This document shows positions 1 through 42,264 of a stretch of 64,000 nt of DNA, one piece after another. The stretch spans positions 25,795 through 89,794 of the forward strand of contig JBAXQO010000001.1 of NCBI GenBank assembly GCA_037131675.1, read 5' to 3'. The translations under genes and the position numbers were made by a program. Origin of the DNA: a bacterium. Lineage in GTDB: Bacteria > Patescibacteriota > Minisyncoccia > Phycocordibacterales > CAIZIN01. Within the stretch, counting starts at the first letter, position 1; the number at the start of each line of letters is the position of its first letter. The notes under the pieces were generated by a model, which was not told the DNA's origin, did not search any database, and was given only the letters and a program-made list of their open reading frames with translations.

Positions 1-1
1 A

Positions 2-973
2 CTTGTAAATAACGAGTCAGAGATTCTTATTGCTTCAAATAACAATAAAAATAATCCTGATGTGTGTTTTCTTGTTCATGTGGATGTAGTGGCAGGTAGA
101 CCAGATCAATTTTCAATTAAAGTTAAAGACAATGTTGCTTATGGGCGAGGAGTGAGCGACATGAAATTTTCTATCCCTATTGGTTATTCCCTTTTGAATG
201 AAATGATTGAACAAAAAAGTAAATTGACCTTCTCATTAATAGTAACTTCTGATGAAGAGACAGGTGGTTTTAATGGTGCTCAATTTTTGGCAAAAAAATA
301 TGGTTTGAAACCAAAAATATTAATAGTACCTGATGGTGGTGATGATCTTATCTTTGTAAATAAATCAAAAGGAGTCTGCCAACTTCAAATCACTTCTTGT
401 GGTCGACCAGCTCACTCGTCTAGAATTTGGGAAGGGAGAAATGCAGTCGAACCAATCATCAGGTTATGTAATGAGCTGCTTAAGAGGTATGGTCAAAATA
501 ATAAAAAAGAGACATGGAATACTACCTTCAACATAAGTAAAATCAATGGGGGTATATCAACTAATCAAGTATGTGACAAAGCAGAGGTATCATTTGATTT
601 TCGTTTTCCAGAAGATACTTCATACAAAGAGATTAAAAATGAAGTATCTATAATTGCGAAGGAAATAAGTAGTGACTTATCTGTTAAATTACTTTCCTAC
701 GGTAACCCAACTTTTGTGGAAGAGAAAAATGAGACAGTTATCTTGTTTGTCAAGGCATTTGTTGAAAATTTTAAAAAACAGATAAAAATTGCAGGTACCC
801 ATGGAGCTTCGGATGCTCGTCACTTTACCTCATTAAATATCCCTATTTTAATGATTAAGCCTATAGGCGGAGATATACACGGTGAAAATGAACATATAAA
901 TATTGATTCATGCATCACCTACTACTCAGCTCTTAAAAGTTTTATGAGAAAACTTGAGTATCCTGAGAATTAA
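2..973 (+). CDS. M20-family metallopeptidase (ArgE/DapE-like); 5' end cut by window start
   Basis: Frame is open to position 2. HVDVV metal-binding motif and GRPAHSS motif are typical of peptidase M20 (acetylornithine deacetylase/succinyl-DAP desuccinylase family). Confidence 0.7.
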   Translation, partial: LVNNESEILIASNNNKNNPDVCFLVHVDVVAGRPDQFSIKVKDNVAYGRGVSDMKFSIPIGYSLLNEMIEQKSKLTFSLIVTSDEETGGFNGAQFLAKKYGLKPKILIVPDGGDDLIFVNKSKGVCQLQITSCGRPAHSSRIWEGRNAVEPIIRLCNELLKRYGQNNKKETWNTTFNISKINGGISTNQVCDKAEVSFDFRFPEDTSYKEIKNEVSIIAKEISSDLSVKLLSYGNPTFVEEKNETVILFVKAFVENFKKQIKIAGTHGASDARHFTSLNIPILMIKPIGGDIHGENEHINIDSCITYYSALKSFMRKLEYPEN

Positions 974-2637
974 AATAGCGACTTGAGAAATTCAGTCTTT
1001 CTTTGACCTCCCAACATTGAATAAACATAACCTAAAATTTCACCAATATCAGCATTTTCAATATCAATATAGTTTCTATCTGTTGCAATTAAACCACTTG
1101 CCCCATCCTTCTTTGACTCTGTTAGTATTTTTTTAATGATGGACTGCCAGTACTTAATATTCTTTTCACGCAAATCGATCCATCCACTATTAGCCCAAAG
1201 ATCAATATTTTTAGTACTAATAATATTTTCCTCCTTTATGTTTGGAACATAGAAGTACTCACCCGCTGTTACATGATCATCATTGAAAATAATAGGTAGT
1301 CCCAGAGATACAATTTGTGAACGTACTTGCTGATTGTCTTCTAAGAATTTATTTATTTTTTTAACTAAAGCACCACTTGAGGATTTAACAAGTACTGACA
1401 GAGATTTCTGACTACAAGCTAACATTAAATATATTTCGAAAAGATGTTTTGAAACTGTTGGACCGAGGTTGTTTGTTGCAATGCTAGGAATTGAATTTTT
1501 TACTTCTAGACCAGTAAGTCTATCAAGAATGATACGTCTTTGAATTCCACCTAAATGTGATGGTCCAAGTGCTACTAAGTCCATTGCAGTAAGTAGATCA
1601 TGTCTAGTTGATCCTATTGCCATTTCAATACAGGCTTGAGCAACTTCCTCCCTAGTCACACACTCCATTTGCCCCAACGCTGTTATAGCAGTCATTTCAC
1701 CTAAGCTATAAGCACAGTTTTCACCTGAATCAACGTAGGGCATTTCCATAAAAGTAGAAATTTGTTCACATTTGCCCGGAACAAAAACTTCACCAGATAC
1801 CAATTTAGTTTTTGTCTTAGAATCAACTAGAGGTATACCCCTACCATGAGAACGAAATTGACCAAAACCGACTCCTTGCCAACCAACAAGAGCAGCTGGA
1901 ACAACTACTTTTACGTTAATTCCTGGAGTGTGGGATAGGCCCCAAAATAATTGATGAATAACTCCAGCAGCAGCAACCTTACCCAGAATCCCAGAAGACA
2001 TACCGGGTTCATTTACATCACCGTGTGTATAAAAAAGATTATCACCCATACCACCCAAGCCAGTTGTAGATACTTTTACATAACACTTAACCTTAAAATC
2101 AAGCAAACTCTTTTTAAGAGCTTGAGTGAAGCGAATTAAACTAGGAACAATATTAGAAACAAGAAGGTTTTCTGTTGAATCACACCAGTCTTGTTTCTTA
2201 TCTCCCTTGTTTAAAATTCTTCTTGGAAGAGAATATGGATCATCCTGATAACCAACAACTGTTGCTGTATTAATACCATCAAAGATATAGTCTGGTTTCC
2301 ATTTTTTAACTAAGTAATACAAAGATGATTCTTTGATTAAGTCATCACTCAAATACGAGTAATAATATCTTATTAGTTCTTTTCTATTCTCGGACACATG
2401 AAGCTCATCACGATTAAGATTCATTAATTTCTTAGTAACTAGAGCATTACCCCATGAAATTTGAATATCAATGTTGCAATCTCCTAAATTTGCTTGAATA
2501 TTTTTAAATACCACTACAGCTTCTTTTTTAGTTAAAGTATGTAGGATAATTCTTTTAGGATTATTTTTAATTGATTTAAGAGCACAAGCTTCTCCAATTT
2601 GGCCAGCCCCTAGAATAAGTATAGTTTTATTTCTCAT
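970..2637 (-). CDS. Two-domain protein: N-terminal NAD(P)-binding Rossmann domain + C-terminal FabD-like acyltransferase-like domain; function unknown
   Basis: N-terminus ILGAGQIGEA is a GxGxxG dinucleotide fold. C-terminal half has GWQGVGFGQ followed ~66 residues later by AYSLGE, spacing and shape like the FabD GQGSQ...GHSLGE acyltransferase signature. Confidence 0.4.
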   Translation of the reverse strand: MRNKTILILGAGQIGEACALKSIKNNPKRIILHTLTKKEAVVVFKNIQANLGDCNIDIQISWGNALVTKKLMNLNRDELHVSENRKELIRYYYSYLSDDLIKESSLYYLVKKWKPDYIFDGINTATVVGYQDDPYSLPRRILNKGDKKQDWCDSTENLLVSNIVPSLIRFTQALKKSLLDFKVKCYVKVSTTGLGGMGDNLFYTHGDVNEPGMSSGILGKVAAAGVIHQLFWGLSHTPGINVKVVVPAALVGWQGVGFGQFRSHGRGIPLVDSKTKTKLVSGEVFVPGKCEQISTFMEMPYVDSGENCAYSLGEMTAITALGQMECVTREEVAQACIEMAIGSTRHDLLTAMDLVALGPSHLGGIQRRIILDRLTGLEVKNSIPSIATNNLGPTVSKHLFEIYLMLACSQKSLSVLVKSSSGALVKKINKFLEDNQQVRSQIVSLGLPIIFNDDHVTAGEYFYVPNIKEENIISTKNIDLWANSGWIDLREKNIKYWQSIIKKILTESKKDGASGLIATDRNYIDIENADIGEILGYVYSMLGGQRKTEFLKSLF

Positions 2638-3670
2638 AAAATGTTTTTTTTATGTTATCCACACTCTCATAGTCTGTGATTTTCATAGCATTTCTAACCT
2701 CCTTCATTGTAACAGATGCTAACTTTTGAGCCCTATTAGTACCCTCTAGTAAAGCCTCACGTACAGCTTCTGGATGAGCCTGGAAATAAGCTCTTCTCTC
2801 TCTAATCGGCGTCAAAAATGTATTTAAGACTTCAGATAAGATTTTTTTAAGTTCCCCATCACCAATTTTACCTTCCTTATATTTCTTTTTAAGGTCTTCC
2901 AATTCGGTGCTGTTTTTATGAAAAGCATCTAAGTAACTAAAAACAACATTGCCCTCGATATGTCCTGGATCTGTTGCTTTTAATCTTGTCGGGTCAGTAT
3001 ACATACTCTTTACCTTTCTATTTACCTCTTCTTCTGAATCAGATAAGTAAATACAATTATTCAAACTCTTACTTGCTTTGGCCTTACCATCAATACCAAT
3101 TAATCTAGGTATACGTCCAACCAGAGCCTGAGGTTCTTTAAAGACACTTCCGTAAACATTATTAAATTTACGGACAATTTCTCGTGTCAATTCAATATGT
3201 GGTAATTGGTCTTCTCCTACGGGCACAAGATCAGCCTGAGGTAGTAATATATCCGCAGCCTGAGAAACAGGATAATTATAAAATCCAAGAGAAACATCAC
3301 TTTTCTTTTGTTGAATAATTTCTGCCTTAAGCGTTGGATTTCGATCCACTAAAGAAATAGGAACAAACATACTCAATAACATAAATAGTTCGGCGTGTTC
3401 TGGAACATAACTCTGTATAACAAAAGAACATTTTTTTGGGTCTAATCCTACAGATAACCAGTCTAAGGTAACACTAATAACTGATTTTCTAATTCTATCT
3501 GTTTCACCTAGGTGATCACCTAAGGCTTGATAATCAGAAATTAGAAAAAAGCACTCATACTCATCTTGTAATTTTAGCCAATTTTCTAAAGCACCAACGT
3601 AGTGACCTAAATGAAGTGGTCCGGTTGGGCGTACCCCTGTTAAAATTCTTTTTTTAGGTTTATTCTCCAT
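2627..3670 (-). CDS. trpS: Tryptophanyl-tRNA synthetase, copy 1 (genome-typical low GC)
   Basis: Class I aaRS HIGH motif (PTGPLHLGH), QDEYECFF and VSQAADIL blocks typical of TrpRS. KMSKS present as KASKS. No cysteine cluster. Confidence 0.9.
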   Translation of the reverse strand: MENKPKKRILTGVRPTGPLHLGHYVGALENWLKLQDEYECFFLISDYQALGDHLGETDRIRKSVISVTLDWLSVGLDPKKCSFVIQSYVPEHAELFMLLSMFVPISLVDRNPTLKAEIIQQKKSDVSLGFYNYPVSQAADILLPQADLVPVGEDQLPHIELTREIVRKFNNVYGSVFKEPQALVGRIPRLIGIDGKAKASKSLNNCIYLSDSEEEVNRKVKSMYTDPTRLKATDPGHIEGNVVFSYLDAFHKNSTELEDLKKKYKEGKIGDGELKKILSEVLNTFLTPIRERRAYFQAHPEAVREALLEGTNRAQKLASVTMKEVRNAMKITDYESVDNIKKTFYEK

Positions 3671-3801
3671 GTGGAAAATAGTATACCATACTTAGTCAAG
3701 CCAAACACGTTGACAAGTTAGGTCTCACCTGTATACTCAAATAAGCTTATTGCACATTAACAGTTGGTGTTAGTCAAATACAAAAAAAGGAACACGAGAT
3801 T

Positions 3802-4809
3802 ATGAAAAAACGGATTCTAACAGGAGATCGACCTACGGGAAGGCTCCACATTGGCCATTTGGTTGGAACGCTTCAAAATCGCGTTCGACTTCAGGACGAA
3901 TATGAGTGCTTCTTCGTTATTGCCGATCTACAGGTCCTCACGGACCACATTGATCTTCACAGCAACATCGAAGCAAACATTTTCGAGGTGATGTGTGACT
4001 ATTTGAGTGTTGGATTGAAACCTGAAAATTGTTTCTTTATCCAATCACAAGTACCAGAACTTTGTGAACTGACCATGTATTTTTCCTTCCTGGTTTCTCT
4101 TGCTAGTGTACAGAGAAACCCAACGGTGAAAAGCGAGGCAGAAATGTATGGCGTGTCACAAATGAGTTTGGGCTTTGTTAGCTACCCTGTTTCTCAGGCC
4201 GCTGACATTCTTGCCTTTAATGCAGATTTAGTTCCTGTTGGACAGGATCAACTTCCGCATATTGAGCAAGCTCGAGAAGTCGCAAGAACTTTTAACAGAA
4301 CCTTCGGTAAGAAGATTTTCAATCTTCCTGAGGCGCTGGTTGGAGAGATACCTGTCTTATCAGGCACCAAAGGAGATCAGAAAATGAGCAAGAGTTTGAA
4401 TAATCAGATTGACCTTGCTCACTCTGGAGAAGAAACTTCGCTCAGAATCGGGAAGATGGTGACAGATGTTCAGCGTGTTTTTCGTAAAGATGTTGGACAC
4501 CCTGACAGTTGCCAAGCTTTTAAATACTGGTCCATCTTTGCCCCCGAAGCAACTCAACAAGTTCGTTTTGAGTGTGAGGGTGCAATGCGTGGCTGCAAGG
4601 AATGCAAAGCACAACTGGCAGATAAAATGAACACCTATCTTGGCGAGATCCGTGAGAAAAGGAAATACTATGCTTCCAAACCAAACCTTGTCTGGGAGAT
4701 TCTAGCTAGTGGTACCAAGCGAGCTCGTCAGGTTGCAAAACAAACCTTGATGGAAGTGAGAGAATCTATGCATCTTTCGTTTCCGCTCCTCAAACTGCCT
4801 TCTGACTAA
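3802..4809 (+). CDS. trpS: Tryptophanyl-tRNA synthetase paralog, copy 2 (higher GC, C-x20-C-x6-C-x2-C motif)
   Basis: HIGH (PTGRLHIGH) and KMSKS intact; ~50% identical to copy 1 by eye. Contains DSC...FECEGAMRGCKECK Cys4 arrangement resembling the [4Fe-4S] TrpRS of Thermotoga. Visibly GC-richer than flanks. Confidence 0.85.
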   Translation: MKKRILTGDRPTGRLHIGHLVGTLQNRVRLQDEYECFFVIADLQVLTDHIDLHSNIEANIFEVMCDYLSVGLKPENCFFIQSQVPELCELTMYFSFLVSLASVQRNPTVKSEAEMYGVSQMSLGFVSYPVSQAADILAFNADLVPVGQDQLPHIEQAREVARTFNRTFGKKIFNLPEALVGEIPVLSGTKGDQKMSKSLNNQIDLAHSGEETSLRIGKMVTDVQRVFRKDVGHPDSCQAFKYWSIFAPEATQQVRFECEGAMRGCKECKAQLADKMNTYLGEIREKRKYYASKPNLVWEILASGTKRARQVAKQTLMEVRESMHLSFPLLKLPSD

Positions 4810-4830
4810 GATGTAAGACTAGTAATAAAA

Positions 4831-4868
4831 ATCACCCAAGTGCTTCAGAGCTTTGGGTGATTTTCTTT
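4831..4868 (+). terminator. Rho-independent terminator after trpS copy 2
   Basis: ATCACCCAA...TTGGGTGAT stem followed by TTTTCTTT. Confidence 0.5.
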
Positions 4869-5003
4869 AAATAACTATACTGTATAATAATATAACCAAA
4901 TGTTATGAAAATACAGATCACCACACTTTAATTTAATAAAAGATTTTTATAGTAAAATATTCTTACTTTACTAAATATAATTCCACATATTAAGTATAAT
5001 TAA

Positions 5004-5960
5004 ATGACATGCATGCTAATAAATACCCTTAGTAAACAAAAGAAGCAGACTAAATTTGATTTAAGATTATTAAATTTTATAACAGAAACCATTGGACCCA
5101 AATTTGAAATTAGTAAGGTGTATGGTGGACTTGTACACGATGTATATAAAATTCATAATAAAAATACATATCATTATCTTAAACTAAGAGGAAGTTACTT
5201 TTCAATGATCCCAAACATAGTCATAAACCCCAAAGATATAAAATATGAAAAAAAGGCTTTAGAAATTTTCTCCAAATTATTACCGGATATTTTCCCTACA
5301 ATAATTGCCTTTAACGAGGAACTATCTGCGATTATTTTGAGCGATATCAACCCTTCTGGGTACACATTAGAACTTTTATTTAACCAACAAAAAGTCAATG
5401 TACTTATTATGGAAAAAATTGGAATAGCCTTAGGTAGAACTCATTTTTACTTGAGAACAATTACCGATTCAATCCGTCCAGATGACGACAAAAATTATTA
5501 TGAATCAAATTTTTGTGATAGATTTTTAAAGTTTAACTATCCAATCGCGAATATTTGCGCGAAAAAACTAGTTTCGGATCTCAAAAAAATTCCCAGACAA
5601 CTTATTTTATCAGACCTGTCTCCTAAGAATATAGGTATTAGTGAGGATAATAAAATTAGTTTTTTTGATTTAGAATGTGTACATAAAGGAAATACAATCT
5701 TTGATTTAGGGTTTTTGTTAGGACATATTACTTTACACTCAAAAAACAATTCAAATGTTCTTATTAAAAGTCTATTACAGGGCTATATGATGTCTATAAA
5801 TGATTCCATTGACTCTAAAATGTTAGAAAAAATTATGGGCATTACTATTTTATATAGATTATGTAATGAAATTATACCTTATCCATTACCTATTTCTGAT
5901 GCAGAAAAAAAGGCCCTAATTGAAAAAGCTTGTTGTTTATTAAATATAGATAAAAAATAG
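5004..5960 (+). CDS. APH/choline-kinase-like phosphotransferase fold protein
   Basis: LSDLSPKNIGI resembles the Brenner motif (hxDxxxxN) and FFDLE resembles the DFE/DLE metal-binding motif of the aminoglycoside phosphotransferase/ChoK family. Very AT-rich. Confidence 0.5.
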   Translation: MTCMLINTLSKQKKQTKFDLRLLNFITETIGPKFEISKVYGGLVHDVYKIHNKNTYHYLKLRGSYFSMIPNIVINPKDIKYEKKALEIFSKLLPDIFPTIIAFNEELSAIILSDINPSGYTLELLFNQQKVNVLIMEKIGIALGRTHFYLRTITDSIRPDDDKNYYESNFCDRFLKFNYPIANICAKKLVSDLKKIPRQLILSDLSPKNIGISEDNKISFFDLECVHKGNTIFDLGFLLGHITLHSKNNSNVLIKSLLQGYMMSINDSIDSKMLEKIMGITILYRLCNEIIPYPLPISDAEKKALIEKACCLLNIDKK

Positions 5961-5996
5961 GGGTTTTTAATTATTACGTTAAAAACCCCTATTTGA
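5959..5996. terminator. Bidirectional terminator between convergent kinase-like and GNAT genes
   Basis: 12-bp stem AGGGGTTTTTAA/TTAAAAACCCCT with 8-nt loop, A/T runs on both sides. Confidence 0.6.
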
Positions 5997-6001
5997 ATTT
6001 C

Positions 6002-6712
6002 TTAATTCTCCCCAATAAACAAAAAGCCATTGTGGGTAGAACCATCCTCAACACTGAGTGCTGTTTCGAACCATTGGTTTACAGTTTTAATACGAGAACA
6101 GGGAATCTTATCGTATAAACACTTCTCATACAACCCTGTTACAACAAATGAATTCAGGTCGATATTCCCAGATCGACCAAAGGTAAGTTTTGTACCCAAC
6201 TTCCTAAGATCCATTGGAACCTCTGGATTTTTTGGGTTAGGGTAGACTTTGGTGCGCAAACCTTCCAACAAACAAAACATGATTGGATTTTGAGTCGTGA
6301 ATGCAATCATGCGCAAGTTTGCTTTACTAGAAAGTGTATGAGCAAGTTTTCTGCCAACACCTCGACATTTATAATTCTGAGCAGTTGCAATTCCATGAAG
6401 ATAGAAAACTCCTTCTTCAGGAAAAACCTTCGATGAAGCGAAGCCTAAAATCTGACCATGGTCATGAAGAAAGGCTATTGAACCCGCATCAACTACATGA
6501 TTTCTAACACCGTCATCGGTATCATTATCGAGATCTGCTCCAAAACTTTCAGCTGTGATTTTTTTGAGATCTACAATCAAACGATCTACAACCTCAGCAT
6601 TCACAGAATCAGTCAATATCAATCTTGGATTGTCCAACACGGAAATGGTTGCCCCTTCCCAATCAACAGACCAAACATTCTGTTTGGAAAGAAAATCGCT
6701 AAATGTTTGCAT
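6002..6712 (-). CDS. GNAT family N-acetyltransferase
   Basis: Motif A-like HGIATAQNYKCRGVGRKLAH (Q/R-x-x-G-x-G/A) of acetyl-CoA-binding GNAT fold. Confidence 0.6.
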   Translation of the reverse strand: MQTFSDFLSKQNVWSVDWEGATISVLDNPRLILTDSVNAEVVDRLIVDLKKITAESFGADLDNDTDDGVRNHVVDAGSIAFLHDHGQILGFASSKVFPEEGVFYLHGIATAQNYKCRGVGRKLAHTLSSKANLRMIAFTTQNPIMFCLLEGLRTKVYPNPKNPEVPMDLRKLGTKLTFGRSGNIDLNSFVVTGLYEKCLYDKIPCSRIKTVNQWFETALSVEDGSTHNGFLFIGEN

Positions 6713-6837
6713 AATTTTATTACCTCCTATTTTAAAGATCGTTAAAACAAAATTCTATTCTGTATAGTACATATAAAAAGAAAGAAGTCAATTTTACTTT
6801 TAAATTAAATAGTGCTAGTATGAAAAAAGTTAAAAAA

Positions 6838-6910
6838 GGGCGTGTCGGTTAATTGGTTAAACCCATAGTCTCCAAAACTATTACTGTGGGTTCAAGTCCC
6901 ACCACGCTCG
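6838..6910 (+). tRNA. tRNA-Trp (anticodon CCA)
   Basis: 73-nt cloverleaf folded by hand. Acceptor GGGCGTG/CACGCTC (one G-U). D-stem GGTT/AACC. Anticodon stem ATAGT/ACTAT with loop CTCCAAA (U33, CCA, A37). T-arm GTGGG-TTCAAGT-CCCAC. Discriminator G. No encoded CCA. Confidence 0.85.
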
Positions 6911-6938
6911 CGTCCCTTCTAGGTACAGATAAAAGAAA

Positions 6939-6974
6939 AACCACCCGAACTTTCATTCAGGTGGTTATTTTATT
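6939..6974. terminator. Hairpin + T-run between tRNA-Trp and the convergent chorismate mutase gene
   Basis: AACCACC...GGTGGTT stem with long loop followed by ATTTTATT. Could terminate either strand. Confidence 0.45.
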
Positions 6975-6981
6975 GATTGCT

Positions 6982-8103
6982 TCAGACTTTTTTTCCAGCA
7001 ACAATGATGTATGCCCCTAACCCAGTTTCCGTTTGGACAATAATGTCATCTAGCTCCTGGATAGTTCCAACTGGCTTTATACTTTCAATAATTTCAGTTG
7101 GAAGGATTGAAGTAAGTACAGGGTAAGTATATGATTCCAAAACACAAAGCCGATCTGGAATCATTCCTTTTATCTCACTCAGGGTATATGGCTGAGCAAA
7201 AATTGGGATTAATTCATTACCCAGCCTAACCTCCAAGCAATTTCTTTCCTGATCAATACCTGCAACTAATCCGAGTGGCCAAGGGAAAAAAGTTCTTTGG
7301 GCCCATGCCTCTTTGTTATAGAAAGAGATAAGAAAACGCCCGTGCGGTTTCAACACCCTCCTAATTTCAGAGAAGACAAAACTCAAATTTTGAACATCAC
7401 TCCCAGTGCCATTATTCATGATCAGAAATGAAACGGAACAATCTTCAACTGGGAATCGACTTTCAATGTCATGAACTTCCAGGTTGATATTTTTCAAACC
7501 CTCTTTTGCAACCCCTTTTAGGCCGAACTCAACCATCGCAGGACTTATATCGAACCCTTGGAGCTTTCTGAACCTTTTCGAGAGTCGTCTGATTTCCTTA
7601 CCTGTAGCACAACCTAAATCGAGAGCATATTTTCCATCACAAGATTGAGAGATTATTCTATCAATTACACCATGCTCAAATTTTGTAAGAGCAGCTGTTG
7701 CAGGATGCTCTCTATCATACTCCAAATCATATTTGGGGGCCCACGATTCAGTAAGCCTAATAAGATTAGCCTGAAGCTCTTCGTAAGTAGGGTTAAACTT
7801 CTCAGAAGAATTCCCAAGTCTTAAACTATCGACAATTACCATTTGGTTCTTGCACGACTCCCCAATGACTGGGTACAAAAGTGAGCGAGCAAATTCGGGA
7901 TTTACCCCCTCTTCTTCCGCCCACTTTGAAACTTGATCTAACCGTTCTTTTTCTTTTTGAGAACGATAAAGAGGAGAACCATCCTCAATCTTTATCATTG
8001 CAACTTCCTTTGCCAAACGAACACGCCTGGCCAACAAGTGGACAAAATGCCTATCGACAGATGCTATCTTTTGGCCTAAAATATCAAGTCTATCTTTTTT
8101 CAT
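6982..8103 (-). CDS. Chorismate mutase (AroQ-type) fused to class I SAM-dependent methyltransferase
   Basis: N-terminal LDILGQKIASVDRHFVHLLARRVRLAKEVAMIK...RSQKEKERL matches the AroQ chorismate mutase helix pattern. C-terminal DLGCATGKE...GFDISPAMVEFG is a class I MTase motif I. Start set at the ATG at 8101-8103, preceded by GGAGG 9 nt upstream. The longer tracked ORF (to 8280) would overlap the next gene. Confidence 0.65.
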   Translation of the reverse strand: MKKDRLDILGQKIASVDRHFVHLLARRVRLAKEVAMIKIEDGSPLYRSQKEKERLDQVSKWAEEEGVNPEFARSLLYPVIGESCKNQMVIVDSLRLGNSSEKFNPTYEELQANLIRLTESWAPKYDLEYDREHPATAALTKFEHGVIDRIISQSCDGKYALDLGCATGKEIRRLSKRFRKLQGFDISPAMVEFGLKGVAKEGLKNINLEVHDIESRFPVEDCSVSFLIMNNGTGSDVQNLSFVFSEIRRVLKPHGRFLISFYNKEAWAQRTFFPWPLGLVAGIDQERNCLEVRLGNELIPIFAQPYTLSEIKGMIPDRLCVLESYTYPVLTSILPTEIIESIKPVGTIQELDDIIVQTETGLGAYIIVAGKKV

Positions 8104-8215
8104 TTTAATGTACCTCCAGTTGACAATACTATTGGTTTGTATTGTTTTGTCAAATAAGAAAAAACCTTGTTCAACAGTTCTGTGTGTACAAGGTTTATAG
8201 ATATTAATATATATC

Positions 8216-8470
8216 CTAACTTTTTTTATTAATATTGAAGTGCGGCTCTGGAATCTCAGACTGACATTTTCCACAGACAATCTTTTCTTCCACTATTTTA
8301 GACGAAATGTATTGGTGGCATTCTTGACACCAAACCAATATCTTTTTGCATGAGGGACAGTGACGTTTCGAAACATCTTTGTCTGGTAAAATAATTCCGG
8401 AAGTACCGAAACCACAACTTAGACAAAAGAAACGAACGCCTATAGGATGTGTTTTTGGTATTGTATTCAT
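8216..8470 (-). CDS. Small Cys-rich zinc-ribbon protein (four CxxC pairs)
   Basis: CLSCG, CPSCK, CQEC, CGKCQ motifs in 84 aa. Confidence 0.5.
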   Translation of the reverse strand: MNTIPKTHPIGVRFFCLSCGFGTSGIILPDKDVSKRHCPSCKKILVWCQECHQYISSKIVEEKIVCGKCQSEIPEPHFNINKKS

Positions 8471-8613
8471 TTGTTAAATAACTGTTTGGTTATGATGTTA
8501 ACACTCGAAAAATATTTGTCAAAATGCCCCGTCAACATGTTCACATTATACTTTTCTTATTCCAATACATAACTTTACTTGACTAAACCACTACACTTTG
8601 ATAAAGTAGTTGA

Positions 8614-8928
8614 ATGAACTGGGACACGAAAGAAAACAAACGTTTAATTGAAGCAATCTTAGCTCTGGAAACAAGAGCTGAGGCTAAGTTGTTTTTGCGT
8701 GACCTCATGACCGAAGGGGAAATTGAAGAATTTGCAAAACGATTTAAAACAGCTGAAATGCTCGTAGATAAAATCCCCTACTCTATTATCGAAAAAGAGA
8801 CTGGCTTTAGCTCCACAACAGTCGCAAGAGTCTCTAAATGGCTCCGAGGCAAGCAAGGAGGCTACAAAGCGATGATTAACAAATTACATCATCATAACTC
8901 TAACCAAATAAGGAAAGAGTTGTCTTGA
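8614..8928 (+). CDS. TrpR-related YerC/YecD-family DNA-binding protein
   Basis: LIEAILALETRAEAKLFLRDLMTEGEIEEFAKRFKTAEML...TGFSSTTVARVSKWL closely parallels the Bacillus YerC (Trp repressor-like, PF01371) sequence pattern. Confidence 0.7.
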   Translation: MNWDTKENKRLIEAILALETRAEAKLFLRDLMTEGEIEEFAKRFKTAEMLVDKIPYSIIEKETGFSSTTVARVSKWLRGKQGGYKAMINKLHHHNSNQIRKELS

Positions 8929-9043
8929 TTGGATTTTAAATAATAAAGCCAGCCCCTTCCTTATTTGAAATTTGGAGGGGGTTTTGTTTATCTACCTAGT
9001 ACAAAAATGATAAACATGTAGTTCTTTAAAAGAAAGTTAACAT

Positions 9044-9646
9044 ATGAAAATTGAAGTAATGAATCCATTCCAGCAGCACAACATTGTTGGAAAAGTAGTT
9101 TCTGCATACCAAAAAGTTTTTGGTGGCGAACCGTGGAAAGAGGGTTACAAATGTCCTATCTGTGGAACTGAAGTGCCACTTAATTTTGAGAATGAAGTTT
9201 GTCCAGCTTGTGCGGGTGATGGAAAATCTATCTTACTCATAGAAAGTTGGCCAGCAAGTAAGGTTACTTCAGATTTCTATAAAGAAATGAGCAAACCTGA
9301 AGCTTTGTGTATGGTAGCAGAGAAAGAAAATGAGGTTGTTGGTTTTGCGTGGGGGTATAAAATATGTATTACCTCTGAAACCGATACTTATCTTGACGCA
9401 CCTAATGTTCACAAACTAGTTGCGGGAGAAGTATTCTATCTCGATGAGGTTGCTGTTTTGCCAGAATATCAAGGAATGGGTATTGGCAAAAGTATCGTCA
9501 AAGAAATATTTTCCGCCCAGAAACATAAAACTATCTTACTTAGAACTTTAGCAGATTCGCCAATGTTTTACCTCACGAAAAAAATGGGAGGGAAAGTTAT
9601 CCTCAATATTTCAAGGGGTCGAGTTATTATGTTACTAAATCTTTAA
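9044..9646 (+). CDS. GNAT acetyltransferase with N-terminal CxxC-x17-CxxC zinc ribbon
   Basis: CPICG...CPACAG ribbon. LDEVAVLPEYQGMGIGKSIV is GNAT motif A. Confidence 0.6.
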   Translation: MKIEVMNPFQQHNIVGKVVSAYQKVFGGEPWKEGYKCPICGTEVPLNFENEVCPACAGDGKSILLIESWPASKVTSDFYKEMSKPEALCMVAEKENEVVGFAWGYKICITSETDTYLDAPNVHKLVAGEVFYLDEVAVLPEYQGMGIGKSIVKEIFSAQKHKTILLRTLADSPMFYLTKKMGGKVILNISRGRVIMLLNL

Positions 9647-9653
9647 AAGTAAG

Positions 9654-9682
9654 GCCTGGTGTTTTTAACACTAGGCTTTTTT
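9654..9682. terminator. Bidirectional terminator between convergent genes
   Basis: 10-bp stem GCCTGGTGTT/AACACTAGGC (one G-U), 3-nt loop, T6 run. Confidence 0.6.
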
Positions 9683-10489
9683 CTTTTCTCCAAGTAAAAA
9701 GGCTTCTTCCCCACCAGTTTCAACATTTCTAGCAAAGAGAATTATACTGTCTTTCTGTGCTCTGACTTCTTCTTTCCCATCTGTTCCAATAACTTGTCCT
9801 AAGTTTATTTCTTCAAAATCACTGAATTCTTTTGTGAGTTTAAAATTATTTTTTGTAATATAAATTGAATACATTTGAATATAATTTTGTGTATATATTT
9901 GTCTTTCTCCAGATACGTGCTCCCTAGCGCGGAGAAATGTATAGATACTTTCTTCGGCTATTTCCGTTGATTTTTGATCTCCAAGATACCCACATTCAAC
10001 ACAAATTCCAATTTTACCAATGCTGTTCATGTAGTAATCTGTCCCACCAGGTTCCACCTGATCAAAGCCAGATACAATAAGCGAAAACGGTAAATATTTC
10101 ACAATTTCTTTTGAATTTGGTTCACAAATGATAAATCTCTGACTTGCAGGAGTATAGCTTGCATGAATATCAAGAAGAACGTCGGCTTGATCAAGATACT
10201 TTTTTAGAAATTGAGCGCGAGAATATTCGTAACTTTCCTTTTCTTTTTCAGACAATAACTCATCTGACTTAAACATTCGGTTTAGATTTGCTTCAGTATA
10301 ACGAACATTTTGGTCTATGGATTGTGGGTTTCCATAAGCAAAAAACGCTTTACCTTTTTGTATTTCAAGTTTAGACAGTATTTTATTTAAGGCTTCAACC
10401 CCACACTTTTCATTACCATGGACACCCACCAAAATCATACTTGTTGGCCCAGGTTCTCTACCCACTAATTCAATAACATTTTCGTACAT
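9671..10489 (-). CDS. AstE/AspA family zinc deacylase (succinylglutamate desuccinylase/aspartoacylase-like)
   Basis: GVHGNE zinc-binding motif near N-terminus and overall length typical of AstE_AspA / M14-like fold. Confidence 0.55.
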   Translation of the reverse strand: MYENVIELVGREPGPTSMILVGVHGNEKCGVEALNKILSKLEIQKGKAFFAYGNPQSIDQNVRYTEANLNRMFKSDELLSEKEKESYEYSRAQFLKKYLDQADVLLDIHASYTPASQRFIICEPNSKEIVKYLPFSLIVSGFDQVEPGGTDYYMNSIGKIGICVECGYLGDQKSTEIAEESIYTFLRAREHVSGERQIYTQNYIQMYSIYITKNNFKLTKEFSDFEEINLGQVIGTDGKEEVRAQKDSIILFARNVETGGEEAFLLGEKKKA

Positions 10490-10527
10490 ATAAACATACT
10501 AACACTTTGCTTTAGTTAAGTAAAGTA

Positions 10528-11007
10528 TTAGGATATTTTATTAAGTATATGATCGGCAGTTTCTTCTGGAGCTTGATCTGAATTATCTATTATCTCCCCG
10601 AAAGAAGGGTTGGGTATTCCGATATTATAATGATGTTGAATTCTTTCTTTTTCCCAATCATCCAACTCTCGAGTACCCCTGTTTGTAAGAGCTTTTTCAA
10701 GTTTTGGTGCAAGGGTAAAAATGTAAATTTTAGTATCAACATCTTTTAAGCTACCCATCATATAATCATAATTTTTCTGAGATAAAGGATACGGGACTAT
10801 TACATTTAATTTCCTGCTAGAAAAGTTCTTAACCACAGAAAGCGCATTCTCAAGATTTATTGGTACAGATTGGTCTATAGGCATCCAATCAATCATCGCT
10901 CGGAGAACATCAATTTCCACCAAAGCAGTATTGGCAATCCTTTTTGCTAAAATATTGGCTACTGTGCTTTTTCCTGAATTTATTGAACCATTTAGAAAAA
11001 TAATCAT
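10528..11007 (-). CDS. P-loop kinase, chloramphenicol-phosphotransferase-like (AAA_33/CPT family)
   Basis: MIIFLNGSINSGKST Walker A at extreme N-terminus, as in CPT-family small-molecule kinases. Confidence 0.5.
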   Translation of the reverse strand: MIIFLNGSINSGKSTVANILAKRIANTALVEIDVLRAMIDWMPIDQSVPINLENALSVVKNFSSRKLNVIVPYPLSQKNYDYMMGSLKDVDTKIYIFTLAPKLEKALTNRGTRELDDWEKERIQHHYNIGIPNPSFGEIIDNSDQAPEETADHILNKIS

Positions 11008-11010
11008 AAA

Positions 11011-12036
11011 TTAATGTTTACTTATCACAATACTTTTCTTTTTAGTATCCACTCTTACCTCTCCGCCAATAGGGAAAGTGATTATGGGACTCGTATGGCC
11101 GAAATCTACATTTGCAATCACAGGAATGTTTTTTAGTTCTGCTTTGCTTTTTATAATCTTAATCAATTTTTCTTTTGTTACATTACTCGTTTTTTGGAAT
11201 CTACCAATTACAATTCCTTTTACACCTTCAAAAGACGGTTGGTGAATGAGTGATTGTAAATCTCTATCAAAATGAACAGCTTTTGATTCATCATCATCCT
11301 CCAAAAACAAAACTGAATCTTTCAGATTTGGCATATATTCAGTTCCTTGGATAAGGTTAAACGTACCCAAGTTGGCACCGAGCAATGTACCCGAAGCTTT
11401 CCCTTTATTTATTACAAGCCAACCGTCATTTTTGATCACCTCTCTTTTATCCTGGTCTTTATACCACACATCATCTGTCCATGTTTCAGAAGGTTCGATA
11501 GCAAATTCAGCATCAGACATGAGGCACTTTTTGAAATATTCCAGCGTGTAATCAAAGTATAATTTCTGTCCAAAAGTAGACCATGCTGGTCCAGAATATG
11601 TAACCAAGCCAGTCTTTGCAAAAATTGCATTTTGTAGAGCTGTCGTATCAGAATATCCAATAAATACTTTGGGGTTCTTTTTTATAATATCCCAATCAAT
11701 ATATCTCAAAAGTTGATTACAGTTGAATCCACCAATGACAGCAAATACAGCTTTGACTTTTGGGTCTTGAAAAGCTTTGTGTAAATCACTTACTCTTGAT
11801 TTTATTGACGAAGAATTAAACTCGTCTATTTCTTCGACGTTTTTACCGAAAGATATTTTAAATCCAAGATCTGAAAGTCTTTTATTTGCAATATCTCTTA
11901 TGTCTTGTGAGATGATAGCAGCCGAGCTAGATGGGGCTATGATTCGTATTTCATCCCCTGTTTGTAATTTTTTTGGAAATATTTTTTTCATTACTTTAAT
12001 ATTACCGAAAACACTATTTTTGTCTATTTGTGTCAA
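11011..12036 (-). CDS. Peptidase S66 LD-carboxypeptidase (LdcA/MccF family)
   Basis: IRIIAPSS...GYSDTTALQNAIFAKTGLVTYSGP matches the conserved S66 nucleophile region (GYSDxTAL). Confidence 0.7.
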   Translation of the reverse strand: MTQIDKNSVFGNIKVMKKIFPKKLQTGDEIRIIAPSSSAAIISQDIRDIANKRLSDLGFKISFGKNVEEIDEFNSSSIKSRVSDLHKAFQDPKVKAVFAVIGGFNCNQLLRYIDWDIIKKNPKVFIGYSDTTALQNAIFAKTGLVTYSGPAWSTFGQKLYFDYTLEYFKKCLMSDAEFAIEPSETWTDDVWYKDQDKREVIKNDGWLVINKGKASGTLLGANLGTFNLIQGTEYMPNLKDSVLFLEDDDESKAVHFDRDLQSLIHQPSFEGVKGIVIGRFQKTSNVTKEKLIKIIKSKAELKNIPVIANVDFGHTSPIITFPIGGEVRVDTKKKSIVISKH

Positions 12037-12038
12037 AT

Positions 12039-12740
12039 TTATACACCCCCAACCCTATTCATCTTCACATATTCAATTACCTCCTCCAAAGCTATATCAA
12101 AATCATGATTTTTCTCCCATGATTCTTTTATAACTTCTCGTAGTTTTACATGCTGTAGGTATCCGTTATCTGGTTGAAAACTTAAGTCACCAAATTCAAG
12201 ATTGAGTAATACAGTGAAAGATTCTTTAACATCCCACATTTCGTTTTTTGTGAGCCCCTCTTCTTCACAGATACGGTCGTAATATTTATGAAACATAAAA
12301 TGCATAAGCTCGTGCATTGCAACATCCATACAAGCATACTTATTCCTGAACATATCTGTAGCAAACCATTTTTCTTGTGTGTTATATCCAAATCTCCCAG
12401 CTGAAGACAAGACTCCCTTAATTGACTGTTCCGAAAATGGAAACTTATGAACTTTTTCTAGTCTTTCTATAAATTCTTCCTCAATCTTCATCCATTCATT
12501 ATTTATATCTTCTGCTAGTGATAGGAGCTTTTCTTCCTGTGAGTAGTATCTTTCTATCCTTTTCTCTATTTCAGCCTGAACCTCTATTTCTGAAAGCTCT
12601 GAAAATTTTTCAAGATTTTCATTTTTGTATTGGCTAAAACCTTGAGCCTTGATTCGTTTATAGGAATTAATGCCAATGTAATAGTTTGCAATATCTATAT
12701 CTTTATCCACAACAAACTGAACAATTTGAGTCTGTTTCAT
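12039..12740 (-). CDS. Hypothetical protein with HExxH motif (putative zinc metallopeptidase)
   Basis: AMHELMHFMFH motif. No further family recognised. Confidence 0.35.
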   Translation of the reverse strand: MKQTQIVQFVVDKDIDIANYYIGINSYKRIKAQGFSQYKNENLEKFSELSEIEVQAEIEKRIERYYSQEEKLLSLAEDINNEWMKIEEEFIERLEKVHKFPFSEQSIKGVLSSAGRFGYNTQEKWFATDMFRNKYACMDVAMHELMHFMFHKYYDRICEEEGLTKNEMWDVKESFTVLLNLEFGDLSFQPDNGYLQHVKLREVIKESWEKNHDFDIALEEVIEYVKMNRVGGV

Positions 12741-12823
12741 TGGTTAACATCTTACCACAAATAGTTTCTAGACTCACATATATAGGTTGATTTTATCCAA
12801 ACCTACTGTATTATGAACATATT

Positions 12824-13747: not shown

Positions 13748-13761
13748 GTTGTTTTATAAAA

Positions 13762-13796
13762 GAAAAGCCGCGACCCCTAGGGGTCGCGGCTTTTCT
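13762..13796. terminator. Bidirectional terminator between ppaC and dnaJ
   Basis: 11-bp GC-rich stem GCCGCGACCCC/GGGGTCGCGGC, loop TAGG, flanked by A-run and T-run. Confidence 0.7.
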
Positions 13797-13803
13797 TTTA
13801 TAA

Positions 13804-40711: not shown

Positions 40712-40715
40712 AACC

Positions 40716-40758
40716 CCAAGAGTTGGCGGAGAAATCCACCAACTCTTTTTTATGGATT
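40716..40758 (+). terminator. Terminator after asd
   Basis: AAGAGTTGG...CCAACTCTT stem (with internal GGA/TCC extension) followed by TTTTTTAT. Confidence 0.55.
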
Positions 40759-42259: not shown

Positions 42260-42264
42260 ACACC

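What the first reader, a model, noticed from the sequence alone, without database searches (positions are those of the whole stretch)
2627..9646. Tryptophan-centred accessory locus: two divergent TrpRS paralogs, tRNA-Trp, TrpR-like regulator, chorismate-mutase-methyltransferase fusion, kinase and GNATs
Within 7 kb sit two full-length tryptophanyl-tRNA synthetase genes transcribed divergently (2627..3670 minus; 3802..4809 plus). With them are the tRNA-Trp(CCA) gene (6838..6910), a YerC/TrpR-family DNA-binding protein (8614..8928) and an AroQ chorismate mutase fused to a SAM methyltransferase (6982..8103). The same locus holds an APH/ChoK-fold kinase, two GNAT acetyltransferases (one with a zinc ribbon) and a small Cys4 zinc-ribbon protein. 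Five Trp/chorismate-related functions clustered together is unlikely by chance. A second aaRS copy next to small-molecule-modifying enzymes is the classic signature of self-resistance or immunity to an aaRS inhibitor (e.g. indolmycin/chuangxinmycin for TrpRS), or of a tRNA-dependent tailoring pathway. This is a candidate undescribed Trp-linked system.
Basis: partly seen in the sequence, partly recalled or inferred. Interest (0 to 1): 0.75.

Follow-up and report, generated by a model that had tools for sequence, protein, structure and literature searches.

The report
Conserved tryptophan-tRNA gene neighbourhood in Patescibacteria
A tiny-genome bacterium keeps two different tryptophan-charging enzymes, the tryptophan tRNA and several small-molecule enzymes side by side, including a relative of an indolmycin-pathway reductase; relatives repeat the pattern, so it is probably one uncharacterised system.

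Summary
All the genes are present at the stated coordinates, and both TrpRS genes look catalytically intact.

It encodes a 555-aa SDR-fold oxidoreductase carrying Pfam PF27054, a domain named after Ind2, the beta-methylindolepyruvate reductase of indolmycin biosynthesis.

The locus is not a mobile or strain-specific island. It lies among dnaK, rpoA and alaS. Its components recur in divergent Patescibacteria: TrpRS, tRNA-Trp, the chorismate-mutase/methyltransferase fusion, the Ind2-like gene, a divergent GNAT, an ArgE/DapE-type M20 deacylase and a YerC/TrpR-like protein.

Five independent Ind2-like loci in Patescibacteria and Clostridia carry two or more TrpRS genes. The second copy is of a different type each time. 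Here TrpRS1 looks native. TrpRS2 carries the four-cysteine Fe-S motif and has atypical GC3, so it looks acquired.

Best reading (about 0.35): an Ind0/Ind1/Ind2-like arylpyruvate methylation-reduction module makes a tryptophan-mimicking hydroxy acid, and this favours keeping a second TrpRS. No product, resistance or regulation was shown. Rivals are an Fe-S versus cluster-free isozyme pair, tryptophan salvage, and a tRNA-directed function.

The parts
62..973 (+). ArgE/DapE-family M20 deacylase. The window start cuts it; the full gene is 371 aa in L001.
   Evidence: Pfam M20/M20_dimer. NCBIfam TIGR01910 DapE-ArgE gives E 7e-42, below its cut-off. It recurs next to the Ind2-like gene or TrpRS in L009, L010, L011, L150 and L176.
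970..2637 (-). Ind2-like oxidoreductase, 555 aa. The N-terminal part has an SDR/Rossmann fold (GAGQIG). The C-terminal part is the PF27054 'Beta_methylindole_red_C' domain.
2627..3670 (-). TrpRS1. It is cluster-free, of the D. radiodurans TrpRS-II-like type, looks native, and is co-transcribed with the Ind2-like gene.
   Evidence: TIGR00233 gives 287 bits. The best PDB match is 1yi8/2a4m at E 1e-103. It is 83% identical to the gene in the same position in relative L175, and 50-69% identical to TrpRS genes of many phyla that have no module gene on the same fetched contig. GC3 is 0.24, like core genes.
3710..3737 (+). Promoter-like site upstream of TrpRS2 (TTGACA-16-TATACT, 11 of 12 matches).
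   Evidence: This is a consensus match only.
3802..4809 (+). TrpRS2. It carries a C-x20-C-x6-C-x2-C motif at the position of the T. maritima [4Fe-4S] site and is probably laterally acquired.
   Evidence: TIGR00233 gives 240 bits. The Cys motif is aligned. PDB 2g36 matches at E 5e-72. The motif definition comes from PMC2954223. GC is 0.44 and GC3 0.41, against about 0.24-0.31 for core genes. It is absent from relative L175.
4829..4868 (+). Hairpin followed by a T-run after TrpRS2, which suggests a monocistronic unit.
   Evidence: Read directly from the sequence.
5004..5960 (+). APH/MTR-kinase-like protein. The assignment is weak and the gene is lineage-specific.
   Evidence: Pfam APH gives E 4e-4, below its cut-off. 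MTRK gives a partial match at E 1.7e-7. It was found only in same-species contigs L001-L005. GC is 0.28.
6002..6712 (-). GNAT1, a divergent acetyl-CoA-type N-acyltransferase with a conserved TQNP motif and a C-terminal extension. It is a conserved member of the module.
   Evidence: Pfam Acetyltransf_1. Homologues sit in L010, L011, L092, L093, L175, L176 and L177 next to TrpRS, the methyltransferase or the Ind2-like gene. The family was found only in Patescibacteria-type sources.
6838..6910 (+). tRNA-Trp (anticodon CCA, discriminator G73), convergent with the CM-methyltransferase gene.
   Evidence: The same convergent pairing with the CM-methyltransferase occurs in L011 and L094.
6982..8103 (-). 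AroQ chorismate-mutase domain fused to a class I SAM methyltransferase.
   Evidence: Pfam CM_2 gives 60.5 bits; Methyltransf_31/25/11 also match. The fusion is confined to Patescibacteria. The equivalents of EcCM R28, K39, E52 and Q88 are near-invariant, while R11 is not. Family median pI is 5.7.
8216..8470 (-). 84-aa protein with four CxxC pairs (double zinc ribbon), upstream of the CM-methyltransferase on the same strand.
   Evidence: Sequence. A homologue overlaps the start of TrpRS in L094.
8614..8928 (+). YerC/YecD-family TrpR-related DNA-binding protein.
   Evidence: Pfam Trp_repressor gives 66 bits. TIGR02531 gives 59.9 bits against a 42.2 cut-off. It is also present in L009 and L176.
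9044..9646 (+). GNAT2 with an N-terminal zinc ribbon. It is a lineage-specific neighbour.
   Evidence: It was found only in L001, L002 and L009.
9671..10489 (-). AstE/AspA-family deacylase. It is peripheral and may belong with the adjacent LdcA murein-peptide recycling genes.
   Evidence: Pfam AstE_AspA_cat. It recurs in L092 and L175. LdcA is downstream.

Best explanation
The locus is the local version of a conserved Patescibacterial tryptophan module. It sits in the core genome.

Shown:
1. TrpRS1 and a 555-aa Ind2-family SDR oxidoreductase form one overlapping transcription unit.
2. A chorismate-mutase/SAM-methyltransferase fusion sits beside the only tRNA-Trp gene in the window.
3. A divergent GNAT, an ArgE/DapE-type deacylase and a YerC/TrpR-like protein recur with these genes in distant relatives.
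4. A second TrpRS of varying type has been added next to the Ind2-like gene several times independently.

Inferred:
1. The methyltransferase and the Ind2-like reductase act like Ind1 and Ind2 of the indolmycin pathway. An aryl (indole) pyruvate, made from tryptophan by an unlinked transaminase, would be C-methylated and then reduced with NAD(P)H to a tryptophan-mimicking 2-hydroxy acid resembling indolmycenic acid.
2. The GNAT and deacylase might add and remove an N-acyl group on a pathway intermediate or on tryptophan itself.
3. Because such a product competes at the tryptophan site of TrpRS, cells carrying the module benefit from a second TrpRS with different properties. Here that is the laterally acquired, Fe-S-type TrpRS2, which has its own strong promoter.
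4. The YerC/TrpR-like protein would tie expression to tryptophan level.
For: - The Ind2-family label (PF27054) is assigned to the 555-aa protein and to all its close homologues. Its N-terminal half has an SDR fold.
- TrpRS1 and the Ind2-like gene overlap by 11 nt. The same upstream or overlapping TrpRS arrangement is seen in L175, L176, L007 and L008.
- TrpRS, a SAM methyltransferase and the Ind2-like gene occur together in the window, L010 and L011. The methyltransferase pairs with the Ind2-like gene in L177. This matches ind0/ind1/ind2 as described in PMC8246080.
- Two or more TrpRS genes flank the Ind2-like gene in the window, L150, L175, L008 and L013, with non-orthologous second copies. 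All pass TIGR00233.
- In Clostridia the Ind2-like/TrpRS pair lies in clusters that look biosynthetic. These hold NRPS, B12-radical-SAM, PPDK_N and SAM_HAT genes, or sit between an SNF amino-acid symporter and an auxin-efflux-type carrier.
- TrpRS2 is compositionally foreign (GC3 0.41 against 0.24) and is absent from the closest relative examined.
- Both enzymes have Gln at the position of BsTrpRS His43. The H43N change gives indolmycin resistance (PMC4899734; alignment).
- The methyltransferase family is acidic, which fits a small-molecule enzyme.
Against: - In about 75 Ignavibacteria/Bacteroidota-type genomes the Ind2-like family sits in housekeeping contexts without TrpRS or a methyltransferase. 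In Calditrichota it lies inside a trpS-scpAB-rluB-cmk run. The family therefore has a general role that need not involve tryptophan analogues.
- I could not compare directly with S. griseus Ind0, Ind1 or Ind2. The Ind2 link rests on a precomputed Pfam hit.
- No transaminase and no equivalents of Ind3-Ind7 are present.
- A profile search with the methyltransferase finds generic N-, O- and C-methyltransferases, not known keto-acid C-methyltransferases.
- The conserved chorismate-mutase active site is unexplained in a phylum not expected to make chorismate.
- The Gln43 feature is shared by the whole TrpRS-II/T. maritima-like clade, including TrpRS genes that stand without any module gene on the fetched contigs of many phyla.
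- Several module loci show only one TrpRS (L010, L011, L176).
- No shared operator was found.
Confidence: 0.35

Rival explanations
1. Isozyme backup. TrpRS2 (oxygen- and iron-sensitive [4Fe-4S] form) and TrpRS1 (cluster-free) are two housekeeping-grade enzymes used under different redox, iron or tryptophan conditions. The YerC/TrpR-like protein may switch between them. The neighbouring enzymes would be unrelated salvage or housekeeping genes kept nearby by synteny.
For: - TrpRS2 has the four-Cys motif at the T. maritima site and TrpRS1 lacks it.
- PMC2954223 states that genomes with several TrpRS genes have the motif in only one copy.
- The source samples include stratified lake metagenomes.
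- A CPR precedent exists for dual TrpRS loci headed by a trp repressor. Its authors read these as tryptophan-availability systems (PMC5370408).
- Both enzymes retain all catalytic motifs.
Against: - In the other dual-TrpRS loci neither copy has the Cys motif. This holds for L150 (type I plus type II), L175 and L008; the 466-aa L013 copy was not included in that alignment. An Fe-S/cluster-free split therefore cannot be the general reason.
- This reading does not explain the overlap of TrpRS1 with the Ind2-like gene.
- It does not explain the recurrence of the methyltransferase, GNAT1 and M20 genes.
Confidence: 0.28
2. Tryptophan salvage. The module recovers tryptophan for an auxotroph. The Ind2-like enzyme would oxidise environmental indole-3-lactate to indolepyruvate for transamination. 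The M20 and AstE deacylases would free tryptophan from N-acyl or peptide forms. The GNAT would buffer the pool. TrpRS and tRNA-Trp would be co-located for co-regulation by the TrpR-like protein.
For: - In Clostridia the Ind2-like gene lies between an SNF amino-acid symporter and an AEC-family carrier, next to TrpRS.
- The ArgE/DapE-type deacylase and the GNAT recur in the module.
- A TrpR-family regulator is present.
- The wide, housekeeping-like distribution of the Ind2-like family fits a primary metabolic role.
Against: - A methyltransferase has no obvious place in salvage.
- The reading gives no reason for repeated gain of extra TrpRS genes.
- No transaminase is linked.
- The deacylase could equally be a genuine DapE, and AstE may belong to the murein-peptide genes.
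Confidence: 0.17
3. tRNA-directed function. The CM-methyltransferase, and its YbaK-linked relatives, would act on tRNA-Trp or Trp-tRNA-Trp. Possible roles are making the modification that the Fe-S TrpRS is proposed to recognise, making a carboxy-SAM-like cofactor from prephenate, or editing mischarged tRNA. Alternatively the GNAT would use Trp-tRNA as an aminoacyl donor.
For: - The conserved triad TrpRS (Fe-S type) -> CM-methyltransferase <- tRNA-Trp occurs in the window, L011 and L094.
- Methyltransferase paralogues are fused to or adjacent to a YbaK/tRNA_edit domain (P0169, L010, L177).
- PMC2954223 proposes that the cluster recognises a modified tRNA.
- From established knowledge, CmoA uses prephenate plus SAM.
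Against: - The methyltransferase family is acidic (median pI 5.7).
- CmoA is not among the best 60 PDB profile matches.
- GNAT1 has an acetyl-CoA-type motif and matches RimI/AAC-type acetyltransferases, not Fem or L/F-transferases.
Confidence: 0.12
4. No common function. The genes are neighbours through inherited gene order in a small genome, and the TrpRS duplication is an ordinary lateral gain.
For: - The flanks are core genes.
- Each family also occurs alone elsewhere.
- No shared regulatory motif was found.
Against: - Co-localisation persists at 30-40% protein identity, with rearranged order and orientation.
- It is reproduced in Clostridia.
- Five independent dual-TrpRS loci next to one gene family would be an unlikely accident.
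Confidence: 0.08

Closest known systems
Indolmycin gene cluster of Streptomyces griseus (ind0 TrpRS, ind1 indolepyruvate C-methyltransferase, ind2 beta-methylindolepyruvate reductase)
   Same: A TrpRS gene sits next to a SAM methyltransferase and an Ind2-family (PF27054) NAD(P)-type reductase, and an extra TrpRS copy is present in the locus.
   Different: - There are no equivalents of Ind3-Ind7 (PaaK-like ligase, PLP arginine oxidase, imine reductase, N-methyltransferase).
- The methyltransferase is fused to a chorismate mutase and is not detectably related to known keto-acid C-methyltransferases.
- The host is a Patescibacterium with the locus in core context.
- No product is known.
Auxiliary TrpRS enzymes: D. 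radiodurans TrpRS II and the indolmycin-resistant TrpRS1 of S. coelicolor
   Same: Two divergent TrpRS genes occur in one genome. TrpRS1 is the closest sequence relative of DrTrpRS II among solved structures (E 1e-103).
   Different: - Here the TrpRS-II-like copy looks like the native enzyme and the other copy looks like the addition.
- There is no NOS partner.
- Resistance was not tested.
[4Fe-4S] TrpRS of Thermotoga maritima (PDB 2g36)
   Same: TrpRS2 has four Cys residues at the homologous anticodon-binding-domain positions. As reported for other genomes with several TrpRS genes, only one copy has the motif.
   Different: - The spacing is x20 rather than x21-24.
- Gln replaces the His43 equivalent.
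- The source is mesophilic freshwater.
- Cluster binding has not been shown.
CPR TrpRS-A / tRNA-Trp(A73) operons (Mukai et al. 2017, PMC5370408)
   Same: These are candidate-phyla-radiation loci that combine a tRNA-Trp gene, two TrpRS genes and a trp-repressor-family gene.
   Different: - Both enzymes here are bacterial type and the tRNA has G73.
- There is no ORF1 partner.
- The extra partners here are the Ind2-like gene, the CM-methyltransferase, the GNAT and the M20 deacylase.

Membership tests
Tryptophanyl-tRNA synthetase (class Ic) | Full-length match above the curated trpS cut-off, with HIGH and KMSKS motifs | tested here: met
   TIGR00233 gives 287 and 240 bits against a 176.75 cut-off. 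Motifs are HLGH/KASKS in TrpRS1 and HIGH/KMSKS in TrpRS2.
Tryptophanyl-tRNA synthetase (class Ic) | Tryptophan-pocket residues equivalent to BsTrpRS Asp132 and Gln147 (GEDQ) | tested here: met
   Both enzymes have AADI. The second motif is GEDQ in TrpRS1 and GQDQ in TrpRS2.
Tryptophanyl-tRNA synthetase (class Ic) | Charges tRNA-Trp with tryptophan | not testable with these tools
   This needs an aminoacylation assay or complementation of a trpS(ts) strain.
[4Fe-4S] TrpRS (T. maritima type) | C-x(21-24)-C-x6-C-x2-C in the anticodon-binding domain (PMC2954223) | tested here: met
   TrpRS2 has C-x20-C-x6-C-x2-C at the aligned position, so the first spacer is one residue shorter. TrpRS1 has none.
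[4Fe-4S] TrpRS (T. maritima type) | Binds an iron-sulfur cluster | not testable with these tools
   This needs anaerobic purification followed by UV-vis or EPR spectroscopy.
Antibiotic self-resistance aaRS (Ind0-like) | Extra aaRS copy located inside the biosynthetic cluster of its inhibitor | tested here: inconclusive
   The extra copy lies beside Ind2-like and methyltransferase genes. No complete inhibitor pathway was recognised.
Antibiotic self-resistance aaRS (Ind0-like) | Insensitive to the inhibitor, for example through loss of the BsTrpRS His43 contact | tested here: inconclusive
   Both copies have Gln at the His43 position (H43N resistance is from PMC4899734). The whole clade shares this, and sensitivity was not measured.
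Indolmycin (ind) biosynthetic cluster | Ind2-type beta-methylindolepyruvate reductase | tested here: inconclusive
   There is a precomputed PF27054 hit and an SDR fold. No direct comparison with Ind2 and no activity test was possible.
Indolmycin (ind) biosynthetic cluster | Ind1-type indolepyruvate C-methyltransferase | tested here: inconclusive
   A class I SAM methyltransferase is present. PDB sequence and profile searches give only generic relatives.
Indolmycin (ind) biosynthetic cluster | Ind3-Ind7: PaaK-like ligase, PLP arginine oxidase, imine reductase plus chaperone, N-methyltransferase | tested here: not met
   No such domains are found in the genes at 1-14000.
AroQ chorismate mutase | CM_2 domain above the gathering score, with catalytic Arg28, Lys39, Glu52 and Gln88 (E. 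coli numbering, from my own knowledge) | tested here: met
   CM_2 gives 60.5 bits against a cut-off of 27. R27, K38, E51 and Q87 are near-invariant across 20 family members. E. coli 1ecm matches the family profile at E 1e-10.
AroQ chorismate mutase | Arg11' from the partner subunit | tested here: not met
   By my manual alignment to the E. coli sequence recalled from memory, that position is Gly, with Arg or Lys two residues later. The family alignment shows the Gly and the later Arg/Lys.
YerC/YecD TrpR-related proteins | Match above the TIGR02531 cut-off | tested here: met
   59.9 bits against 42.2. The true TrpR model TIGR01321 gives only 19.6 bits against 67.25.
T-box or attenuator-controlled trpS | T-box leader or other known RNA element upstream | tested here: not met
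   Rfam at gathering thresholds finds only tRNAs in the window and in seven related loci.
CPR TrpRS-A / tRNA-Trp(A73) system | [quoted passage not shown] | tested here: not met
   The tRNA has G73. Both enzymes match bacterial-type models best.
Short-chain dehydrogenase/reductase | Rossmann fold with a glycine-rich motif and a catalytic Ser-Tyr-Lys set | tested here: inconclusive

The most novel reading that the evidence does not exclude
TrpRS and the Ind2-family oxidoreductase form a widespread two-enzyme system found in Patescibacteria and Clostridia. It would make a tryptophan-mimicking hydroxy acid, or its adenylate or tRNA ester, that poisons ordinary TrpRS. This would force repeated lateral capture of a second TrpRS. 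In episymbiotic Patescibacteria it could serve as a weapon against the host's translation. The chorismate-mutase/methyltransferase fusion would be a new kind of arylpyruvate C-methyltransferase.
Probability: 0.15. Interest if true: 0.85.

Novelty: new variant of a known kind. Interest (0 to 1): 0.6.

Why it matters
- Duplicated aminoacyl-tRNA synthetases next to small-molecule enzymes are a proven guide to new synthetase inhibitors and to non-translational synthetase functions.
- Here the pattern appears in Patescibacteria, which are thought to have almost no specialised metabolism.
- It is tied to three uncharacterised protein families:
  - an Ind2-like enzyme whose C-terminal domain has no solved structural relative;
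  - a phylum-specific chorismate-mutase/methyltransferase fusion;
  - a divergent GNAT.
- The module gives concrete, clonable candidates for testing three questions: why Fe-S TrpRS enzymes exist, what TrpRS-II-type enzymes are for, and whether ultra-small bacteria make tryptophan antimetabolites.

Tried and rejected
- **T-box or other known leader RNAs.** None at Rfam gathering thresholds in the window or in seven related loci.
- **A shared operator for the TrpR-like protein.** The only palindrome upstream of its gene (ACTTTGATAAAGT) is not enriched and is absent from the other intergenic regions. The repeat search found nothing shared.
- **A 'TrpRS1-type always travels with Ind2-like' clade.** Rejected. 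Of 80 metagenome loci with TrpRS1-like genes at 48-69% identity, 79 show no module gene nearby.
- **Ind2-like as a purely secondary-metabolite gene.** Rejected. At least 598 species genomes carry it, and most of those examined are FCB-group genomes with housekeeping neighbours.
- **Link to queuosine/TGT.** TGT is nearby in only two loci.
- **CM-methyltransferase as CmoA-like or as a keto-acid C-methyltransferase.** No specific PDB relatives.
- **GNAT1 as a Fem- or L/F-transferase-type tRNA-dependent enzyme.** Its matches are RimI/AAC-type acetyltransferases.
- **Plasmid-borne homologues of the Ind2-like gene.** None found.
- **Searches that could not be run.** The primary indolmycin papers (Du 2015, Williams 2016, Vecchione 2009) are not held.

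Full report
**What is there**

The region 1-10.5 kb holds the following genes, in order:

| Coordinates | Strand | Gene |
|---|---|---|
| 62-973 | + | ArgE/DapE-type M20 deacylase (cut by the window start) |
| 970-2637 | - | 555-aa protein (Ind2-like) |
| 2627-3670 | - | TrpRS1 |
| 3802-4809 | + | TrpRS2 |
| 5004-5960 | + | weak APH/MTR-kinase-like protein |
| 6002-6712 | - | divergent GNAT (GNAT1) |
| 6838-6910 | + | tRNA-Trp(CCA) |
| 6982-8103 | - | CM_2 plus class I methyltransferase fusion |
| 8216-8470 | - | 84-aa double zinc-ribbon protein |
| 8614-8928 | + | YerC/TrpR-family protein |
| 9044-9646 | + | zinc-ribbon GNAT (GNAT2) |
| 9671-10489 | - | AstE/AspA-family deacylase |

Both TrpRS proteins exceed the curated trpS cut-off and keep the HIGH and KMSKS-type motifs. 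They are 48% identical. Three small corrections apply: the kinase call is weak, the small protein has eight cysteines, and the unit extends one gene further to the left.

**The source organism and context**

The exact proteins occur in an NCBI metagenome-assembled genome labelled only 'bacterium' and in freshwater lake metagenomes. Close homologues are labelled Patescibacteria, Paceibacterota and Minisyncoccales.

The rest of the window is core genome: dnaJ, dnaK, grpE, rpoA, alaS, mnmA, mltG and leuS. No mobile-element genes flank the locus. 'Accessory island' is therefore not an apt description.

**The missed gene**

The 555-aa protein overlaps the end of TrpRS1 by 11 nt. It carries the precomputed Pfam family PF27054, 'Beta_methylindole_red_C'. 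The name refers to Ind2, the NADH-dependent reductase that converts 3-methylindolepyruvate to indolmycenic acid. In indolmycin biosynthesis Ind2 works alongside Ind0 (TrpRS) and Ind1 (a SAM C-methyltransferase) (PMC8246080).

The local Pfam copy lacks this family, and I could not obtain the Ind2 sequence, so the link rests on that precomputed label.

**Distribution of the Ind2-like family**

The family is large. At least 598 species genomes matched.

- In Ignavibacteria, Bacteroidota and similar genomes it sits among housekeeping genes such as HisRS and a PTS-EIIA-like gene. TrpRS and a methyltransferase are not nearby.
- In Calditrichota it lies inside a run of trpS, scpA, scpB, rluB, the Ind2-like gene and cmk.
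- In Patescibacteria and Clostridia it is repeatedly next to TrpRS.

Individual loci:

| Locus | Arrangement |
|---|---|
| window | TrpRS1 overlapping the Ind2-like gene; TrpRS2 divergent |
| L175 | TrpRS, Ind2-like, TrpRS |
| L176 | TrpRS, then Ind2-like |
| L010, L150 | TrpRS convergent with Ind2-like |
| L011 | TrpRS 3.4 kb away |
| L007 (Wukongibacter) | cluster with NRPS, B12-radical-SAM, carbamoyltransferase and thioesterase genes |
| L008 | three TrpRS genes plus PPDK_N, SAM_HAT and B12-radical-SAM genes |
| L013 | SNF symporter, Ind2-like, AEC carrier, TrpRS, a PLP-decarboxylase-like gene, and an archaeal/eukaryote-type TrpRS |

**A conserved Patescibacterial module**

- The CM_2-methyltransferase fusion is restricted to Patescibacteria.
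- The arrangement TrpRS -> CM-methyltransferase <- tRNA-Trp is found in the window, L011 and L094. In L093 TrpRS overlaps the fusion gene.
- Methyltransferase paralogues without the CM domain are adjacent to or fused with a YbaK/tRNA_edit domain (L010, L177, P0169).
- The GNAT at 6002-6712 belongs to a divergent, phylum-specific family with an invariant TQNP motif. This family turns up in every module locus examined except L094, L150 and the deletion variant L009.
- The M20 deacylase recurs in six loci. The TrpR-like gene is in three and AstE in four (together).
- The kinase-like gene and GNAT2 are lineage-specific.

**The two TrpRS genes**

TrpRS1:
- It belongs to the D. radiodurans TrpRS-II/T. 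maritima-like clade (PDB 1yi8, E 1e-103).
- It is 83% identical to the gene in the same position in relative L175.
- It is 50-69% identical to TrpRS genes from many phyla that have no module gene on the same fetched contig.
- Its composition is ordinary (GC3 0.24).

TrpRS2:
- It carries C-x20-C-x6-C-x2-C at the site of the T. maritima [4Fe-4S] cluster (PMC2954223).
- Its GC3 is 0.41.
- It has a near-consensus promoter and its own terminator-like hairpin.
- It has no orthologue in L175, where the second TrpRS is a different and very divergent enzyme.

TrpRS1 therefore looks native and TrpRS2 looks acquired.

Across loci the second TrpRS differs each time. It is Fe-S type in the window, type I in L150, divergent in L175, a third type in L008 and archaeal/eukaryote-like in L013. 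All pass the trpS model. This repeated, independent doubling next to one gene family is the strongest argument for a functional link.

Both window enzymes have Gln at the position of BsTrpRS His43. H43N confers indolmycin resistance (PMC4899734). However, this Gln is common to the whole clade, so it is only a lead.

**Interpretation**

I favour, at about 0.35, a short arylpyruvate pathway resembling the front half of indolmycin biosynthesis. It would run: transamination elsewhere, C-methylation by the CM-methyltransferase, then reduction by the Ind2-like enzyme. Its tryptophan-like hydroxy-acid product would make a second TrpRS advantageous.

Points against this reading:
- the housekeeping distribution of the Ind2-like family;
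- the absence of Ind3-Ind7 equivalents and of a transaminase;
- the generic affinities of the methyltransferase;
- the unexplained but conserved chorismate-mutase active site;
- module loci that show a single TrpRS.

Rival readings:
- an Fe-S versus cluster-free isozyme pair under TrpR-like control. It fits this window and published remarks, but not the other dual-TrpRS loci;
- tryptophan salvage;
- a tRNA-directed role for the methyltransferase. The conserved triad and the YbaK partners support it; the acidic pI and the lack of CmoA-like similarity argue against it;
- mere synteny.

**Comparison with what is known**

Auxiliary and resistance TrpRS genes, the Fe-S TrpRS, and CPR loci that combine tRNA-Trp, two TrpRS genes and a trp repressor (PMC5370408) have all been described.

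What I did not find described is the conserved coupling of TrpRS and tRNA-Trp with three families: an Ind2-family reductase, a chorismate-mutase/methyltransferase fusion, and a dedicated GNAT with a deacylase. This coupling appears in Patescibacteria and has a parallel in Clostridia. I rate it a new variant of a known kind, with moderate to high interest (0.6). No function has been demonstrated.

Noticed in passing
L009 6831-6833, corresponding to window 2131/7580: A relative with 82-92% nucleotide identity has a clean 5.4-kb deletion. It fuses the N-terminus of the CM-methyltransferase in frame to the C-terminal 82% of the Ind2-like protein (P0018). It removes both TrpRS genes, the kinase-like gene, GNAT1 and tRNA-Trp. 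This is either a real variant or an assembly artefact.
   Followed up: partly
window 32821-35838 (-): The leucyl-tRNA synthetase (1005 aa) has a NUDIX domain (residues 462-565) inserted after the editing domain.
   Followed up: no
window 39719-42876 (+): A GC-rich patch (GC 0.46-0.56, GC3 up to 0.68, against 0.37 for the window) holds asd and the large and small subunits of an aconitase-family (LeuCD/HacAB-like) dehydratase. It is probably a lateral acquisition.
   Followed up: partly
window 54661-55968 (+): A PurC (SAICAR synthetase) and PurE (AIR carboxylase) fusion protein lies in a second GC-rich patch (GC 0.49).
   Followed up: no
window 44278-44365 (-): A long-arm tRNA has the anticodon loop TTACTAA, so ARAGORN calls it tRNA-Ser with anticodon ACU. 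An unmodified A34 is unusual for a bacterial tRNA-Ser.
   Followed up: partly
window 58302-58358 (+): A partial tRNA-like Rfam match (30.8 bits, model positions 9-63) was not reported by ARAGORN.
   Followed up: no
window 27428-28270 (-): A protein combines an ATP-cone domain with an Mrr-type restriction endonuclease domain.
   Followed up: no
L010 854-969 (-): A LOOT RNA (Rfam RF03000, 83.6 bits) lies in a related Patescibacteria contig, near a serine recombinase gene.
   Followed up: no
L013 11318-12718 (+): A Clostridia locus encodes a 466-aa archaeal/eukaryote-type TrpRS with a hydrophobic N-terminal leader. It sits next to a 455-aa PLP-decarboxylase-like protein that also has a leader.
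   Followed up: partly
L008 8890-16299: A Firmicutes locus has three TrpRS genes around the Ind2-like gene, two of them 98% identical. It also holds PPDK_N, SAM_HAT (SAM hydroxide adenosyltransferase) and B12-radical-SAM genes. It looks like an uncharacterised tryptophan-derived biosynthetic cluster.
   Followed up: partly
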